Positions 31,401-64,000 of a DNA stretch of 64,000 nt are shown here, in pieces (position 1 is the first letter of the stretch; the number at the start of each line of letters is the position of its first letter). A program made the position numbers. The DNA comes from Escherichia coli (lineage in GTDB: Bacteria; Pseudomonadota; Gammaproteobacteria; Enterobacterales; Enterobacteriaceae): NCBI RefSeq assembly GCF_041248615.1, contig NZ_CP158426.1; one strand, given 5' to 3'.

Positions 31401-34400
31401 GCGTAAAGCGGACCTGTACGACAAAGTCAGCCAGGCGTTCACCGTCTTCCTGCCGGTACGTTCCGTTGGTGTAATGGGCGATGGTCGTAAGTATGACTGG
31501 GTTGTTTCTCTGCGTGCTGTCGAAACCATCGACTTTATGACCGCACACTGGGCGCACCTGCCGTATGACTTCCTCGGTCGCGTTTCCAACCGCATTATCA
31601 ATGAAGTGAACGGTATTTCCCGCGTGGTGTATGACATCAGCGGCAAGCCGCCAGCTACCATTGAGTGGGAATGATTAACAGCTAACTCATAGCAAATCAT
31701 TCCTATTCAGATGCCAACTCAACCCTCTGTTTTTGCAGAGGGTTTTTGTTTTTATGTATTCATTTCTATTCACTCTACACCATATTTTTCGGCGGTACAG
31801 GTGACGGTATTACCTTAAAGGTATACTCTCATACCGTCATGACAATGGTTTCTATACGGGTGAATTGTGCTTACCGATACAAAATTAAAAAACCTCAAGC
31901 CGCAGGACAAACTGTACAAGGTCTCCGATCGTGACGGGCTGTATGTAGCTGTGCTTACGTCAGGCACGGTCTCGTTTCGCTATGACTACCGTATCAACGG
32001 TCGCCGCGAAACACTGGTAATCGGGCAGTATGGGCGTGACGGTATCAGCCTGGCAGAAGCGCGAGAAGAACTGATTGCTGCAAAGAAGCTGCTTAAAGCA
32101 GGCCAGTCGCCGGCCGCGGCTAAACGTGACGGTATCAAAAAGATTCGTGGTGCCGAGACGTTTGCGGTACATACCGACAGTTATATGAAACACGTCATCC
32201 TGGCTGAAAGTACCCGCGCAATGAAGCAGGCAGTGATCGACCGTGACATACTTCCGGTTCTTGGCAACAAAATGATGGCTGAAATTACCACATCGATGGT
32301 TCGTGATTTGTGTGACCGGATTGTCGAACGCGGTGGTCGGGCAACAGCAGTACAGGCCAGGGAGATCATCAGCAGCGTATACCGTCACGCCAATGACCGT
32401 GGTCATGGTTTGTTTAATCCTGCGGCTGACATTAAACCTTCGTCTATCGCCATATTTAAACCACGAGAGCGAACACTGACACCAGAAGAAATTGGTCTGT
32501 TCTTCCGCACGCTGGATGCCATTGGTGCTATGGGCACTATGAAAATGGCTTTAAAGCTGGTGCTTATCACTATGGTCCGTAAAGGCGAATTCACCAATGC
32601 AACGTGGGATGAAATAGATTTTAAAAAATGGACATGGACAATTCCTTCAGACCGCATGAAGGGAAGTCGGGCGCACGTTATTTACCTGCCTAAACAGGCA
32701 CAGGATATATTAGTCGGGTTGCAGATGTGCGCTGGTGGAAGTGAATATCTGGTTCCTGGTCGTTACAATTTCCGGAAGCCATTATCTAATGCCGCGCTGA
32801 ACTCTCTGATCGACAGAACGGTGAAAATAATAAATGAAGATGGTGAGCATATTCAGGACTTCACCGTACACGATATGCGCCGTACAGCCAGTACGTTGTT
32901 GCATGAGGCTGGTTATCCTTCAGACTGGATTGAAAAGGCTCTGGCACATGAGCAGAAAGGTGTGCGCGCCGTATATAACAAAGCGGAATACGCCAGACAG
33001 CGCGCCTACATGTTGCAGCAGTGGGCCGATATGATTGATTCCTGGATTAACGGGGAGCATACGGATCTGATTCCGTTCTCCCCGTCGAAGTTTGAGAGGT
33101 GGATGGCGGGGGAATAACGTTTAATTATTCTGCTGATTTTCTTCCATCTCGGCTTCTGCTGCCAGTGATTCAATTTTATCTGCGAATATTGCTGACAGTG
33201 TTGCAAATTCAGCATCAGTGACAGCGGGAATTGGAACAAACCTGATCCCGCTGTGTGCAAGCATGTTTGCAGTTTCAAGGCATTTCCTTAAATCTGCTGG
33301 TGATGCCCTGTTCATGCTGCACGCTCCCGCCCCTGGTTGTCTGTTGGTGACAGCGGAGCATTGCTGAATGCATTTGTTAATCTGGCAATATCCAACGCGT
33401 ATCCAGGGTGTAGTTGCACTGCCGGGTCTTCGCACTGATTACCCCAAACATCGAAACCATGAGACGACTGGCGGGCGAACAGTTCAATGCGAGAAACATC
33501 GCCTAACAATTGCACAAGTTTTTCACGAACGATATCTGGTTTTCTTGAATGCTCAAGCCGCGGTGCGGTAAATGACTGAACGATCCCTGCATTAATGCGC
33601 GTAGGTAGTTTTCCCTTTACCGCAAACAGGCAATCTTCACTATTGGCGCGAGTCATGTGCCCCATACCCATAACCAGTTTATCTGGTTGTCGACTACCAC
33701 ATTTTATCCACGTGAAGCCCTTCATCGTCATCAGACGAAATCCCCAGGCTTCAACAACTTTTAGTGCTTCGAGTGGTTGTGTTGGCACCCACCACATGGC
33801 CAACAGACAGTTTTCATCGGCCAAATCCCACACAGGAAGGCGGCAGATATCCATCACACTCATAACCGGATATTTAAAACCGGCACCGCGATTACCATCT
33901 GCGGCTTTGTCCCGGTATACCCAGGGTGGATCTGCATAGATTAGTGTGTATTTCTTAGTCATAAACCACCCCGCAACATCCTATACCGCTATAGTCGCCA
34001 CGGCGAAGGCCGTTACCTTTTGTGATACATTGGTCCCTGCGAACCGCGATCCTTGCACGCTCAACATCACCAGAAGCAACATCCATACACTGAAGCCAAA
34101 GGTGAGCGGCAATGCGGAACTGTCCTTTTTTCTCTCTTTCAATTGCGCGTTTTTCGATCTCTATCGCCGCAGGAGTAACGGCGACAATCTTTGACGGACT
34201 GCGCATTGAAACCTTGTTCATGTGATATTTTTCAAGTCGGCTTAACTTTCTCACTTAATCCAACCCTCTCTGAAAATTAATGCCAGCAGATAAAGCCATG
34301 CTGAAACAGAGGCCAGGAATAAGTACCATCCTGACCATTTGCTCCAGTGCCTTAGCAGCACACTCATGCAGCGTTGCTCACAGGACGATATACACGTTGC

Positions 34401-61400: not shown

Positions 61401-64000
61401 GAAGTGACAGATCTACTGCGCCGCCGGTTTAATGATGCTGGTGGGGACATTGGCTATCTCGAAAACTGGGGGATCCCTCAGCATCATTCTATGGAAAAGG
61501 TTGGGGCGGTATCAAAGGATAAGTGGGTTAGCGATGTTATAGGTAAGCTGGATCGCAAATATTATATCCGAGCCGATGGACAACTGATGAACGATGCCGA
61601 GTTGTCTGCATTTCTTGGAGAGGCTTATAACACGATCGCTACTGGTGGGCTGAATAAGCTTACTGATACCGGAATGCGAATTTCCGGCGCACGTGCTAAC
61701 CGTGGTAATGCATCACGACAGATACATTTCAAAGATGCAGATTCCTATCTGCAATATCAGCAACTTTATGGCGATCGCTCTCTATGGGAAATCATGGTCG
61801 GTCACCTGGAAGGTATCAGTAAAGATATTGCACTGGTGGAAACATATGGCCCAAACCCCGATCATGTTTTCCGCTCTCTTCTTGATCAGGTGAAGGCAGA
61901 AACGGCAACAGCTAACCCGAGTAAAACCGGTAAAGTCGAGCGGCTGGCGAACAACACAGAGAATCTGTACAACTTTATTTCCGGAAAGACACAGCCTGTA
62001 GCGAATCCGCACATCGCGCGATGGTCTGACAATATCCGCAACTGGCTGGTTGCCAGCAGACTCGGATCTGCGTTGCTATCATCGTTCTCTGATCTTGGAA
62101 CCATGTATCTGTCTGCGAAGGTGACCAACCTTCCAATGAACCAGTTATTCCGCAACCAGCTTGAAGCTATGGACCCAACGAACCGTACAGAACTTGCGCG
62201 GGCGCGCCGCGCTGGTCTGGCGATGGAATCTCTACTTGGCAGCGTTAACCGCTGGGCGATGGATAATATGGGGCCGTCAGTGTCTCGTTGGGCGGCAACG
62301 GCGGTAATGCGTGCCAGTGGGCTTACAGCATGGTCAGATGCGCACAAGCGCGCCTATGGCGTAACCATGATGGGAAGCCTGGGAGAAGTAGTGTCACGGA
62401 CACCAGACCTTCGTAGCCTCGATGATTCTGATTTTCGTATCCTGAAAAGCAAAGGGATTACTGACACAGACTGGAGCGTATGGAAGCTGGCGCAACAGGA
62501 GGACTGGGGGAACGGTAATAATACGATGCTGACACCGGAAAGCATTATGCGTATCCCTGATTCAGCAGTTAAACATCTTGGTGAGCCTGAGCGCGTGAAA
62601 TTTGAGGCAATGCGTAAATTGCTAGGTGCCGTAACTGAAGAAGTTGATATGGCTGTTATTACACCGGGAGCTCGTGAGCAACTGATAACCGGTTCTGGTA
62701 TTCAGCGTGGAACATGGAAAGGTGAATTAACGAGAAGTGTTTTCCTGTTTAAATCTTTCCCTATCTCGGTTGTTATGCGTCACTGGTCACGCGCTATGGG
62801 TATGCCGTCTGCTGGTGGGCGTGCGGCATATATTGCGACGTTTATTGCCAGTACGACCATTCTTGGCGCTTTGTCGCAGCAACTTAACGACCTTGCGTCT
62901 GGTCGTAATCCTCGAGAGATGACAGGAGAAGATGCCGCAAAATTCTGGCTTGGTGCTCTACTGAAAGGTGGTGGTCTTGGCCTTTACGGTGACTTTTTAT
63001 TGTCAGATCACACCAGGTACGGAAGCGGCGCGCTGGCGTCGATGCTTGGCCCGGTAGCTGGTCTGGTTGATGACGTGGTGAAGATTGCTCAGGGCATACC
63101 GTTAAATGCTGTGGAAGGGAAGAGTGAGCAGACTGGTGGTGATCTGGTGAAGCTGGGGAAAGGTTTGATGCCTGGTGCGAATCTCTGGTATTTGAAGGCG
63201 GCTCTCGATCACATGATCTTTAACCAGATGCAGGAGTATTTTTCACCAGGCTATTTGCGTAAAATGGAGCAACGTTCGAAGAAAGAGTTTAACCAGACAT
63301 ACTGGTGGCGACCTCAGGATGTCACTCCGCAATAAGGAAGTGTTGTGTTTTTAATTATTTTGAGTGTAATAATTTCTGGTGGATTGTTATTTATTGACCA
63401 CTACAAATATTTTCTTAACCCTCAGACTCAAGCTATTTGCTGGTTCATCTTTGTTGTGCAGGGAGTAGTTCTTGTTGCAAGCCTTATTGAGGGGAGGCCT
63501 CTTATTTTTACTGGGTAAATAGGTGACTACATGCAAGCTATAGGATTCATTGTTTATATCGTCGTTGGTCTTTTTCAGTTGGCAGCAATTATGGCTGGGC
63601 TTGAATCATGGTGGGGATTGCACTGGATAATTGCAGCCCCCATCGCTTTCATCGTGAGCTATATTCCATTTGTTGGAGCGATTGTTGGTATGGTTGGCGC
63701 TGTGGATGTATGGCGGTGGGAGTGGTGGCAGGCTGGCCTTCTATTCTTTGGTGGGATAATCTTTGCTATTGTCTGCGGTGGAATGTCATCATTTTTCGAA
63801 TGGCTATCATTCAGAAAAGAGACGTGACATGTCACAGGCCGCTTTCGCGGCCTTGTTTTTAACGAATGCCACCGCCGCCCGGGCGGGAATCCGCAGAACG
63901 CCCACCGCAGCGGGAGCCGTCAGCGGCAGTATCGCTGTCGTGCTGACAACGGCCGGCAAAGGCCTGAGTTGAAGCTACCAGAGACAACAAAACGAACAGT

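What the first reader, a model, noticed from the sequence alone, without database searches (positions are those of the whole stretch)
31756..64000. Prophage integrated immediately downstream of guaA
guaA has a native C-terminus and terminator, then a P4-type integrase starts 112 bp later and phage modules follow in canonical order to the window end. The virion module (portal ~560 aa, capsid 330 aa, a ~200-aa plus ~820-aa pair, then three 600-840-aa proteins, no tape-measure or sheath genes) suggests a short-tailed phage. I recall that epsilon15/phiV10-like phages use a guaA-associated attachment site, but I cannot verify that here.
Basis: partly seen in the sequence, partly recalled or inferred. 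Interest (0 to 1): 0.5.

Follow-up and report, generated by a model that had tools for sequence, protein, structure and literature searches.

The report
phiV10/epsilon15-like prophage in guaA 3' end
This is an ordinary, apparently intact short-tailed temperate phage of the well-known epsilon15/phiV10 group (genus Uetakevirus), sitting at that group's published attachment site in the last codons of the E. coli guaA gene; about one in ten complete E. coli genomes has the same junction.

Summary
The window is E. coli NRZ14408 chromosome NZ_LT599825.1, positions 1408001-1472000. A 39.6-kb prophage begins at window 31660 and ends 7.3 kb beyond the window. It is bounded by an exact 17-bp direct repeat, ATTGAGTGGGAATGATT. 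This is the published attP/attB core of phiV10, epsilon15 and vB_EcoP_ZX5, and it overlaps the last four codons and the stop of guaA.

The prophage is collinear with phiV10 at about 98% DNA identity. Core proteins are 96-100% identical to phiV10, and protein synteny with epsilon15 holds throughout. All 51 ORFs tabulated are open. There is no sheath or tape-measure gene. Beyond the window lie an antirepressor module, the tailspike and a lysis cassette.

There are two corrections:
- Integration is inside the guaA 3' end, not downstream of it.
- The "native" terminator after guaA is phage-borne. The real guaA terminator sits beyond attR.

Copy-specific features are mosaic cargo:
- an unannotated HNH endonuclease;
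- a second methyltransferase;
- small membrane proteins;
- no O-antigen-modifying gene;
- a tailspike whose receptor-binding part is 94% identical to that of a co-resident P22-like phage.

The finding is already known and of low interest.

The parts
30097..31674 (+). guaA (GMP synthase), host gene. Its last 15 nt (4 codons plus stop) lie inside the att core.
   Evidence: RefSeq annotation; ORF list.
31660..31676 (.). attL core ATTGAGTGGGAATGATT. This is the true left end of the prophage.
   Evidence: Exact 17-bp repeat with L001 43252-43268. Phage-genome matches begin exactly here. The same core is published for ZX5, phiV10 and epsilon15.
31659..31713 (+). Hairpin formed by the att core and an inverted copy in the phage P' arm. 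Predicted to be an RNA-level structure.
   Evidence: MFE -21.7 kcal/mol, z = -5.4. By my reading of the sequences, the mismatches to a perfect inverted repeat are G.U wobbles. The epsilon15 record annotates an RNase III site at the equivalent place.
31721..31754 (+). Phage-borne rho-independent terminator. After integration it replaces the guaA terminator and separates guaBA transcription from int.
   Evidence: Fold -16.4 kcal/mol, z = -5.0. Terminator scan. Annotated as a terminator in phiV10 (26781-26813) and epsilon15. Contiguous with attP in phiV10.
31801..31810 (+). Arm-type integrase site GTGACGGTAT in the P' arm. Further copies lie at 32036-32045 and 32126-32135 inside int. The P-arm copy is beyond the window at L001 43171-43180.
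   Evidence: Identical 10-mers at the four positions annotated as integrase binding sites in epsilon15.
31867..33117 (+). Tyrosine integrase, P4-like architecture.
   Evidence: Pfam Arm-DNA-bind_3, Phage_int_M and Phage_integrase. 99% identical to phiV10 Int and 87% to epsilon15 Int.
33121..36812 (-). Leftward early operon: DUF1382, MT-A70 adenine methyltransferase, PerC-like activator, AlpA-type excisionase/regulator, RecT, RecE-like PD-(D/E)XK nuclease, and gp36/gp37 homologues.
   Evidence: Annotation. 97-100% identical to phiV10, except RecT at 74%. epsilon15 gp33 is annotated as excisionase.
36966..37550 (-). Prophage repressor (HTH protein).
   Evidence: 100% identical to phiV10p40 and 42% to the epsilon15 repressor.
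37705..40370 (+). Rightward early/replication genes: gp39 and gp40 homologues, DnaT-like initiator, lambda-P-like loader, DUF1064.
40367..40975 (+). HNH endonuclease ORF (202 aa). Not annotated in RefSeq and absent from phiV10, epsilon15 and PAS61.
   Evidence: PHROG HNH families, best E = 3.7e-23. No tblastn hit in the three phages. Lies in a gap in the annotation.
41037..44019 (+). Variable moron block: eae-like, small DNA methyltransferase, ead/Ea22, DUF551, ASCH, epsilon15-gp49-like regulator.
   Evidence: The DUF551 protein is 99.4% identical to that of the co-resident P22-like phage.
44060..46206 (+). Terminase small and large subunits.
   Evidence: 99-100% identical to phiV10 and 77-94% to epsilon15.
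46297..46929 (-). Gp49-family gene and phage tRNA-Arg(UCU).
   Evidence: ARAGORN and Rfam. The same tRNA is present in phiV10 and PAS61.
47357..52458 (+). Head module: gp3, portal, Bbp19-like, protease, major capsid protein, Bbp16-like cement, gp9, gp10 staple.
   Evidence: PHROGs. Capsid matches PDB 3j4u (E = 1e-128) and 3j40 epsilon15 gp7 (E = 2e-85). Identities.
52458..55534 (+). Tail tube proteins A (201 aa) and B (823 aa), T7-type short tail.
   Evidence: PHROG tail families. 85-88% identical to epsilon15 gp11/gp12. epsilon15 gp11 is annotated as similar to T7 tail tubular protein A.
55534..63335 (+). Internal virion/ejection proteins (gp13 to gp17 homologues: 154, 181, 837, 600 and 824 aa). 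The 837-aa protein has a transglycosylase-like segment.
   Evidence: PHROGs. RefSeq names the 181-aa protein 'virion core protein, T7 gp14 family'. 97-100% identical to phiV10.
63345..64000 (.). Start of the variable moron slot: a 57-aa ORF and a 98-aa membrane protein (+), then a 53-aa ORF on the minus strand that runs past the window end. Both + ORFs look strongly hydrophobic by eye. The 53-aa product starts with a hydrophobic stretch that looks like a signal peptide; no predictor was run.
   Evidence: ORFs. phrog_3075 and phrog_14503. Absent from phiV10, epsilon15 and PAS61. Shared in part with phiv142-3 and HEMP4.

Best explanation
A complete temperate podovirus of the genus Uetakevirus (epsilon15/phiV10 group) is integrated in the 3' end of guaA.

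Integration mechanism:
- The phage's P4-like tyrosine integrase recombines a 17-bp core in attP with the identical 17 bp that span the last four codons and stop of guaA.
- GTGACGGTAT arm sites on both sides of the core assist the reaction.
- Because the core is identical, guaA keeps its full coding sequence.
- The original guaA terminator is displaced 39.6 kb away to attR.
- A phage-borne terminator with the same stem sequence takes its place. It ends guaBA transcription and presumably shields int from read-through.

Lysogeny control and life cycle:
- Lysogeny is held by an HTH repressor.
- A BRO-N antirepressor, preceded by isrK-like and C4 antisense RNAs, is the likely induction switch.
- An AlpA-type protein is the likely excisionase.
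- The virion is a T=7 HK97-fold head with a gp10 staple, a short T7-type tail tube, internal ejection proteins and a beta-helix tailspike. Lysis is by holins, a GH19 endolysin and spanins.

Shown versus inferred: the boundaries, the homology, the open reading frames, and the att core, arm sites and RNA family hits are shown. The recombination chemistry, the terminator's insulating role, the antirepressor control and inducibility are inferred from the characterised relatives.
For: - Identity of the locus: 100% match to NZ_LT599825.1.
- Annotation of the whole element and both flanks: guaA on one side, yfgI on the other.
- 17-bp exact direct repeat at both ends.
- Empty site contiguous in 4567 of 5426 genomes, 100% identical in KE55.
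- attP contiguous in phiV10, 96.7% over 692 bp, with the core 207 bp upstream of int.
- The same core was shown experimentally for ZX5 and is cited for phiV10 and epsilon15 (PMC9782041). TL-2011b also inserts in guaA (PMC3293862).
- Whole-length collinearity with phiV10 and PAS61 at 97-98%.
- All 51 ORFs tabulated are open. Core proteins are 96-100% identical to phiV10 and syntenic with epsilon15.
- Capsid matches the solved epsilon15 capsid gp7 (3j40) and capsid 3j4u. The epsilon15 record labels 3j4u Bordetella phage BPP-1.
- PHROG assignments for portal, capsid, tail tube and internal proteins.
- Integrase domains and arm sites identical to those annotated in epsilon15.
- Terminators fold and scan as such.
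- C4 and isrK Rfam hits above gathering score lie upstream of the Ant gene.
- 567 of 5426 genomes have the same guaA-attL-int junction.
Against: - Nothing contradicts the assignment.
- Inducibility and virion morphology were not and cannot be tested here.
- The prophage lacks the O-antigen-modifying gene found in phiV10 (oac), PAS61 and epsilon15.
- Its tailspike receptor-binding part has no relative above 56% identity in the phage collection. Its host range is therefore unknown.
- RecT (74%), DUF1064 (74%) and the moron slots differ from phiV10.
Confidence: 0.96

Rival explanations
1. It is a P22-like (Lederbergvirus) short-tailed prophage rather than an epsilon15-like one.
For: It has a short-tail gene set. 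The tailspike receptor-binding part (aa 190-860) is 94% identical to that of a P22-like phage in the same strain.
Against: tblastn finds no similarity (E < 1e-3) between its portal, capsid, terminase, tail or ejection proteins and the P22-like genome L006. Those same proteins are 96-100% identical to phiV10. The N-terminal tailspike anchor is of the epsilon15 type.
Confidence: 0.01
2. It is a cryptic (defective) remnant that can no longer excise or form particles.
For: Inducibility was not tested. One ORF (the HNH endonuclease) is inserted in the early region. The tailspike and moron slots have been exchanged.
Against: - Both att cores are exact, and the arm sites are intact.
- Every tabulated ORF is open. 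Every ORF with a phiV10 counterpart aligns over nearly its whole length, except the mosaic Ea22, Ant and tailspike.
- The length of 39.6 kb equals that of viable relatives at 39.1-39.9 kb.
- The close relative ZX5 is spontaneously induced at 10^7 PFU/mL.
Confidence: 0.1
3. One reading: the phage lies wholly downstream of an untouched guaA with its native terminator.
For: guaA is full length and is followed by a good terminator.
Against: - The repeat that marks the crossover overlaps the guaA stop codon.
- Phage genomes match from window 31660 onward.
- The hairpin at 31721-31744 is part of attP in free phage genomes.
- In empty sites, guaA is followed by the other hairpin, the one now at attR.
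Confidence: 0.02

Closest known systems
Escherichia phage phiV10 (Uetakevirus phiV10, NC_007804)
   Same: Same att core and attP architecture. Same gene order. About 98% DNA identity over the terminase-to-gp17 block. Core proteins are 96-100% identical, including the integrase, repressor, terminase, portal and capsid. The same tRNA-Arg(UCU) is present.
   Different: - No O-acetyltransferase gene after the tailspike.
- A different tailspike receptor-binding domain: only the first 165 aa or so align, at 69% identity.
- RecT and the RecE-like nuclease are separate genes, whereas the phiV10 record has one fused ORF.
- Extra HNH endonuclease, a second methyltransferase, small membrane proteins and DUF4760.
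- A different antirepressor allele (75% identity over 78% of its length).

Escherichia phages vB_EcoP_PAS61, phiv142-3, vB_EcoP_ZX5, HEMP4 and TL-2011b
   Same: 78-85% of the first 22 kb is covered at 97-98% identity. ZX5 has the experimentally verified identical 17-bp attP/attB at the guaA 3' end. phiv142-3 and HEMP4 share the small membrane-protein morons.
   Different: The tailspike receptor-binding domains and moron contents differ. PAS61 carries an O-antigen acetylase and TL-2011b a YafO toxin in slots that hold other genes here.
Salmonella phage epsilon15 (type member, NC_004775)
   Same: The same 17-bp core, GTGACGGTAT arm sites and terminator position. Syntenic gp1-gp20, lysis cassette and integrase. 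Proteins are 28-94% identical.
   Different: Much more divergent: capsid 43%, gp16 33%, gp17 28%. epsilon15 has three serotype-conversion genes and a cytosine methyltransferase that are absent here. The replication and recombination genes are of different types.
P1/P7 immI (C4 antisense RNA controlling ant) and Gifsy-1 isrK
   Same: Rfam C4 (66 bits, gathering score 45) and isrK (67 bits, gathering score 50) lie directly upstream of a BRO-N Ant-family gene on the same strand.
   Different: The setting is an epsilon15-like podovirus. No icd-like ORF was examined, and regulation was not tested. The module lies beyond the window end.

Membership tests
Uetakevirus (epsilon15/phiV10-like temperate podoviruses) | High nucleotide identity and collinearity with recognised genus members | tested here: met
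   97.5-98% identity over 78-87% of the first 22 kb with PAS61, phiv142-3, ZX5 and TL-2011b. Collinear with phiV10 along the whole prophage.
Uetakevirus (epsilon15/phiV10-like temperate podoviruses) | Syntenic virion module homologous to epsilon15 gp1-gp17, including the gp7 capsid and gp10 staple | tested here: met
   Each protein has its epsilon15 homologue in order. The capsid matches PDB 3j40 gp7 at E = 2e-85. RefSeq names gp10 'capsid staple protein'.
Uetakevirus (epsilon15/phiV10-like temperate podoviruses) | Short-tail gene set: tail tube A/B and internal ejection proteins, no tape-measure or sheath gene | tested here: met
   PHROG tail tube and internal virion families. The complete annotation to attR shows no sheath or tape-measure gene.
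Uetakevirus (epsilon15/phiV10-like temperate podoviruses) | Integration at the 17-bp core in the guaA 3' end, with GTGACGGTAT arm sites | tested here: met
   Literature.
Uetakevirus (epsilon15/phiV10-like temperate podoviruses) | Tailspike with an epsilon15-type N-terminal anchor | tested here: met
   Residues 1-165 are 69-72% identical to the epsilon15 and phiV10 tailspikes.
Uetakevirus (epsilon15/phiV10-like temperate podoviruses) | O-antigen modifying (serotype-conversion) gene near the tailspike. This is typical of described members but is not a taxonomic criterion. | tested here: not met
   417 bp lie between the tailspike and the holin gene, with no ORF above 66 aa. No homologue of phiV10 oac, the PAS61 acetylase or epsilon15 gp21/22/28 appears in the annotation of the element or among its ORFs; the reciprocal search with those proteins as queries was not run.
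Uetakevirus (epsilon15/phiV10-like temperate podoviruses) | Podovirus morphology and inducibility | not testable with these tools
   Needs induction and electron microscopy.
P4-type tyrosine integrases | N-terminal Arm-DNA-bind_3 (DUF4102) domain, a central domain and a C-terminal Phage_integrase catalytic domain | tested here: met
   Pfam PF13356 (8e-20), PF22022 (1e-11) and PF00589 (2.5e-19). 99% identical to phiV10 Int, which its record annotates as cd00801 INT_P4.
P4-type tyrosine integrases | Catalytic R-H-R-Y residues | not tested
   The residues were not inspected individually. The full-length catalytic domain matches.
P22-like phages (Lederbergvirus) | P22-type portal, coat, terminase, gp4/gp10/gp26 and ejection proteins | tested here: not met
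   No tblastn hit at E < 1e-3 to the P22-like genome L006, except the tailspike receptor-binding part, DUF551, Ea22, and short RecT and DnaT segments.
P1-type immI (C4 RNA / ant) | C4 antisense RNA upstream of an antirepressor gene on the same strand | tested here: met
   RF01695 at 66 bits (gathering score 45), L001 37625-37708 (-). Ant-family gene at L001 36866-37576 (-).
P1-type immI (C4 RNA / ant) | Complementary target sites and an icd-like leader ORF | not tested
   Not examined.

The most novel reading that the evidence does not exclude
The guaA prophage and the co-resident P22-like phage (NZ_LT599830.1) have recently exchanged a tailspike receptor-binding module (94% aa identity over 671 residues) and a DUF551 gene (99.4%). 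Having no O-antigen-modifying gene of its own, the guaA prophage may rely on the P22-like phage's tailspike-adjacent O-acetyltransferase for receptor masking. Alternatively it may rely on its own small membrane-protein morons. Either would be a division of labour between two unrelated resident podophages.
Probability: 0.15. Interest if true: 0.3.

Novelty: already known. Interest (0 to 1): 0.08.

Why it matters
The finding has little significance beyond correct annotation. It confirms a textbook case of a temperate phage that integrates into the end of a housekeeping gene while restoring both its coding sequence and its terminator. It fixes the true prophage boundaries for this strain.

The minor points of interest are:
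- a phage-borne terminator that copies the stem of the guaA terminator;
- a tailspike module shared between two unrelated podophages in one cell;
- an unannotated HNH endonuclease gene.

These are typical phage mosaicism.

Tried and rejected
- PADLOC on ten cargo proteins found only generic HNH (ZorE-like HNH domain) and methyltransferase matches. No defence system was identified.
- NCBIfam gave nothing above cut-off for the cargo, tailspike or ejection proteins.
- A protein search of the phage collection with the tailspike found no close receptor-binding relative. The best was PSK1 at 56%, so O-antigen specificity could not be assigned.
- PDB sequence search of the tailspike gave only module-level matches: an N-terminal anchor like Dpo31/Dpo36, a generic beta-helix, and a C-terminal chaperone domain.
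- A literature search on the strain name returned papers on darobactin, colistin resistance (mcr) and plasmids. I did not open them, and none is titled as a description of this prophage.
- The Rfam gathering scan found nothing in the window part of the prophage except the tRNA.
- Two scripts failed only because the phiV10 locus was stored inside another file. This was fixed.
- The large protein and metagenome searches, structure prediction and fold search were not used. Near-identical annotated phages made them unnecessary.
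Full report
**Identity of the sequence.** Window 44000-64000 is 100% identical to E. coli NRZ14408 chromosome NZ_LT599825.1, positions 1452000-1472000. The window therefore equals record 1408001-1472000. I fetched record 1436001-1485000 as L001, so window coordinate = L001 coordinate + 28000. I confirmed that the overlap is identical.

**The observation.**
- guaA is at window 30097-31674.
- A 416-aa integrase ORF is at 31867-33117.
- RefSeq and PHROGs name them portal, major capsid protein, tail proteins, internal virion proteins and virion structural proteins.
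- No sheath or tape-measure gene exists in the window.
- The 7.3 kb beyond the window holds small morons, DUF4760, a BRO-N antirepressor, a gp19 homologue, an 860-aa tailspike, two holin-like genes, a GH19 endolysin and an Rz/Rz1 spanin pair. The host gene yfgI follows.
- The prophage has 48.7% G+C, against 51.9% for the upstream part of the window.

**Boundaries.**
- An exact 17-bp direct repeat, ATTGAGTGGGAATGATT, lies at L001 3660-3676 (window 31660-31676) and at L001 43252-43268.
- The left copy covers the last four codons (I-E-W-E), the stop codon of guaA and two further bases.
- The element is therefore 39,609 bp including both cores.
- I built a synthetic attB by joining the left flank and core to the sequence after the right core. 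It is contiguous in 4567 of 5426 complete E. coli genomes and 100% identical in strain KE55, where it is annotated guaA | yfgI.
- A synthetic attP (prophage end, core, prophage start) is contiguous in phiV10: 96.7% over 692 bp, with the core at 26720, 207 bp before int.
- Matches of phage genomes to the window begin exactly at window 31660.
- The same 17-bp sequence is reported as the attP/attB core of vB_EcoP_ZX5 at the 3' end of guaA, verified there by junction PCR and Sanger sequencing. The same paper states it is the proven attP of phiV10 and epsilon15 (PMC9782041).
- TL-2011b is also reported to insert in guaA (PMC3293862).

**Correction of the anatomy.**
It is annotated as a terminator between Rz and int in phiV10 (26781-26813) and in epsilon15 (26795-26824). 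It is part of the contiguous attP.
- The native guaA terminator now lies after attR at L001 43293-43320. In empty sites it directly follows guaA.
- The two hairpins have the same stem (AACCCTCTG...CAGAGGGTT) and different loops: 24 of 27 positions are identical. Both fold strongly, at -16.4 and -17.8 kcal/mol with z about -5.
- I infer that the phage copy keeps guaBA transcription terminated and keeps it out of int. This was not tested.
- The core also pairs with an inverted copy 18 nt downstream in the P' arm (-21.7 kcal/mol, z = -5.4). By my reading of the sequences, the mismatches to a perfect inverted repeat are G.U wobbles, here and in epsilon15. That points to an RNA structure. The epsilon15 record marks an RNase III site there.
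- The 10-mer GTGACGGTAT, annotated four times as an integrase binding site in epsilon15, occurs at the equivalent four positions here: L001 43171, 3801, 4036 and 4126.
- The integrase has Arm-DNA-bind_3, Phage_int_M and Phage_integrase domains. It is 99% identical to phiV10 Int, which its record annotates as INT_P4.

**What phage it is.**
- The first 22 kb match PAS61, phiv142-3, ZX5, HEMP4 and TL-2011b at 97-98% identity over 78-85% of the length. All are E. coli phages of about 39-45 kb, and the PAS61 and phiV10 records place them in Uetakevirus.
- The prophage is collinear with phiV10 along its whole length. One block of 19.3 kb, from terminase to gp17, is 97.9% identical.
- I tabulated 51 ORFs. 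All are open. Core proteins are 96-100% identical to phiV10 and align over their full length. The epsilon15 homologues follow in the same order at 28-94% identity.
- The capsid matches capsid 3j4u (E = 1e-128) and epsilon15 gp7 3j40 (E = 2e-85). The epsilon15 record labels 3j4u Bordetella phage BPP-1.
- Against a P22-like phage from the same strain (L006), portal, capsid, terminase, tail and ejection proteins give no hit at E < 1e-3. The P22-like alternative is excluded.
- The tRNA-Arg(UCU) at window 46853-46929 is also present in phiV10 and PAS61.

**What is particular to this copy.** Differences from phiV10 are confined to known mosaic slots.
1. A 202-aa HNH endonuclease ORF at window 40367-40975. 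RefSeq does not annotate it, and it is absent from phiV10, epsilon15 and PAS61.
2. A 161-aa DNA methyltransferase at 41615-42100, in addition to the MT-A70 enzyme.
3. After gp17: 57-aa and 98-aa membrane proteins, a 53-aa protein that looks secreted, and DUF4760. Some of these are shared with phiv142-3 and HEMP4.
4. No O-antigen-modifying gene. There are 417 non-coding bases between the tailspike and the holin gene. phiV10 has oac there, PAS61 an acetylase, and epsilon15 its conversion genes.
5. The tailspike is a mosaic.
   - Residues 1-165 are of the epsilon15 type, 69-72% identical.
   - The rest has no relative above 56% in the phage collection.
   - It consists of a beta-helix segment and a C-terminal chaperone-type domain.
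   - The receptor-binding part occurs in only 13 of 5426 E. coli genomes.
   - One occurrence is the P22-like phage of the same strain, at 94% aa identity over residues 190-860. There it is fused to a different N-terminal anchor and sits next to a CatB-related O-acetyltransferase.

**Lysogeny control.**
- The repressor at window 36966-37550 is 100% identical to phiV10p40.
- Beyond the window, Rfam finds isrK (67 bits) and C4 antisense RNA (66 bits) immediately upstream of the BRO-N Ant-family gene on the same strand.
- This suggests antisense-RNA control of the antirepressor, as in P1 immI. That is an inference from family membership and was not tested.

**Prevalence.**
- 567 of 5426 complete E. 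coli genomes contain the same guaA-attL-int junction.
- 287 genomes contain at least 80% of the late region at high identity.

**Verdict.** The element is a known kind of prophage at its published attachment site. It is already annotated in RefSeq and common in E. coli. The only additions are the exact boundaries, the phage origin of the terminator after guaA, and ordinary mosaic cargo. Interest is low.

Noticed in passing
L006 (NZ_LT599830.1) 21797-24839, compared with L001 38345-40927: The same strain carries a separate 41.3-kb P22-like phage record. Its tailspike receptor-binding part is 94% identical in protein (96.8% in DNA) to that of the guaA prophage. The N-terminal anchors are unrelated. 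A CatB-related O-acetyltransferase gene sits next to it. The DUF551 genes of the two phages are 99.4% identical.
   Followed up: partly
L001 37625-37809 (-), window-equivalent 65625-65809, beyond the window end: Rfam C4 antisense RNA and isrK Hfq-binding RNA hits, both above gathering score, lie directly upstream of the BRO-N antirepressor gene. This resembles a P1-type immI arrangement in an epsilon15-like phage.
   Followed up: partly
window 40367-40975 (+): An open 202-aa HNH endonuclease ORF overlaps the stop of the DUF1064 gene. RefSeq does not annotate it, and it is absent from phiV10, epsilon15 and PAS61. It is possibly a homing endonuclease insertion.
   Followed up: partly
window 31721-31754 versus L001 43293-43320: The phage-borne terminator that replaces the guaA terminator has the same stem sequence as the native one (24 of 27 positions identical). 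This suggests host-derived or convergent sequence in attP.
   Followed up: partly
window 31659-31713: A strong hairpin forms between the att core (including the guaA stop codon) and an inverted copy in the phage arm. The mismatches are G.U wobbles, here and in epsilon15, which suggests an RNA-level role. The epsilon15 record marks an RNase III site there.
   Followed up: partly
window 46853-46929 (-): A phage-encoded tRNA-Arg(UCU). The same sequence is present in phiV10, where the record has no tRNA feature and an annotated hypothetical-protein ORF (phiV10p04) overlaps most of it.
   Followed up: yes
window 13004-17769: The sinH-type inverse autotransporter gene is split by an ISEc12 (IS21-family) insertion. 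This accounts for the low-GC stretch at 12-16 kb. A SinI-family gene and an adhesion-domain gene about 8 kb long follow it.
   Followed up: no
window 7714-7805 (+): sroE sRNA lies between ispG and hisS (Rfam, 116.6 bits). This is an ordinary core-genome feature.
   Followed up: no
window 34662-36361 (-): RecT and the RecE-like nuclease are two overlapping genes here and in PAS61. The phiV10 record annotates a single fused 586-aa ORF. RecT is only 74% identical to phiV10 but 99% to PAS61.
   Followed up: no
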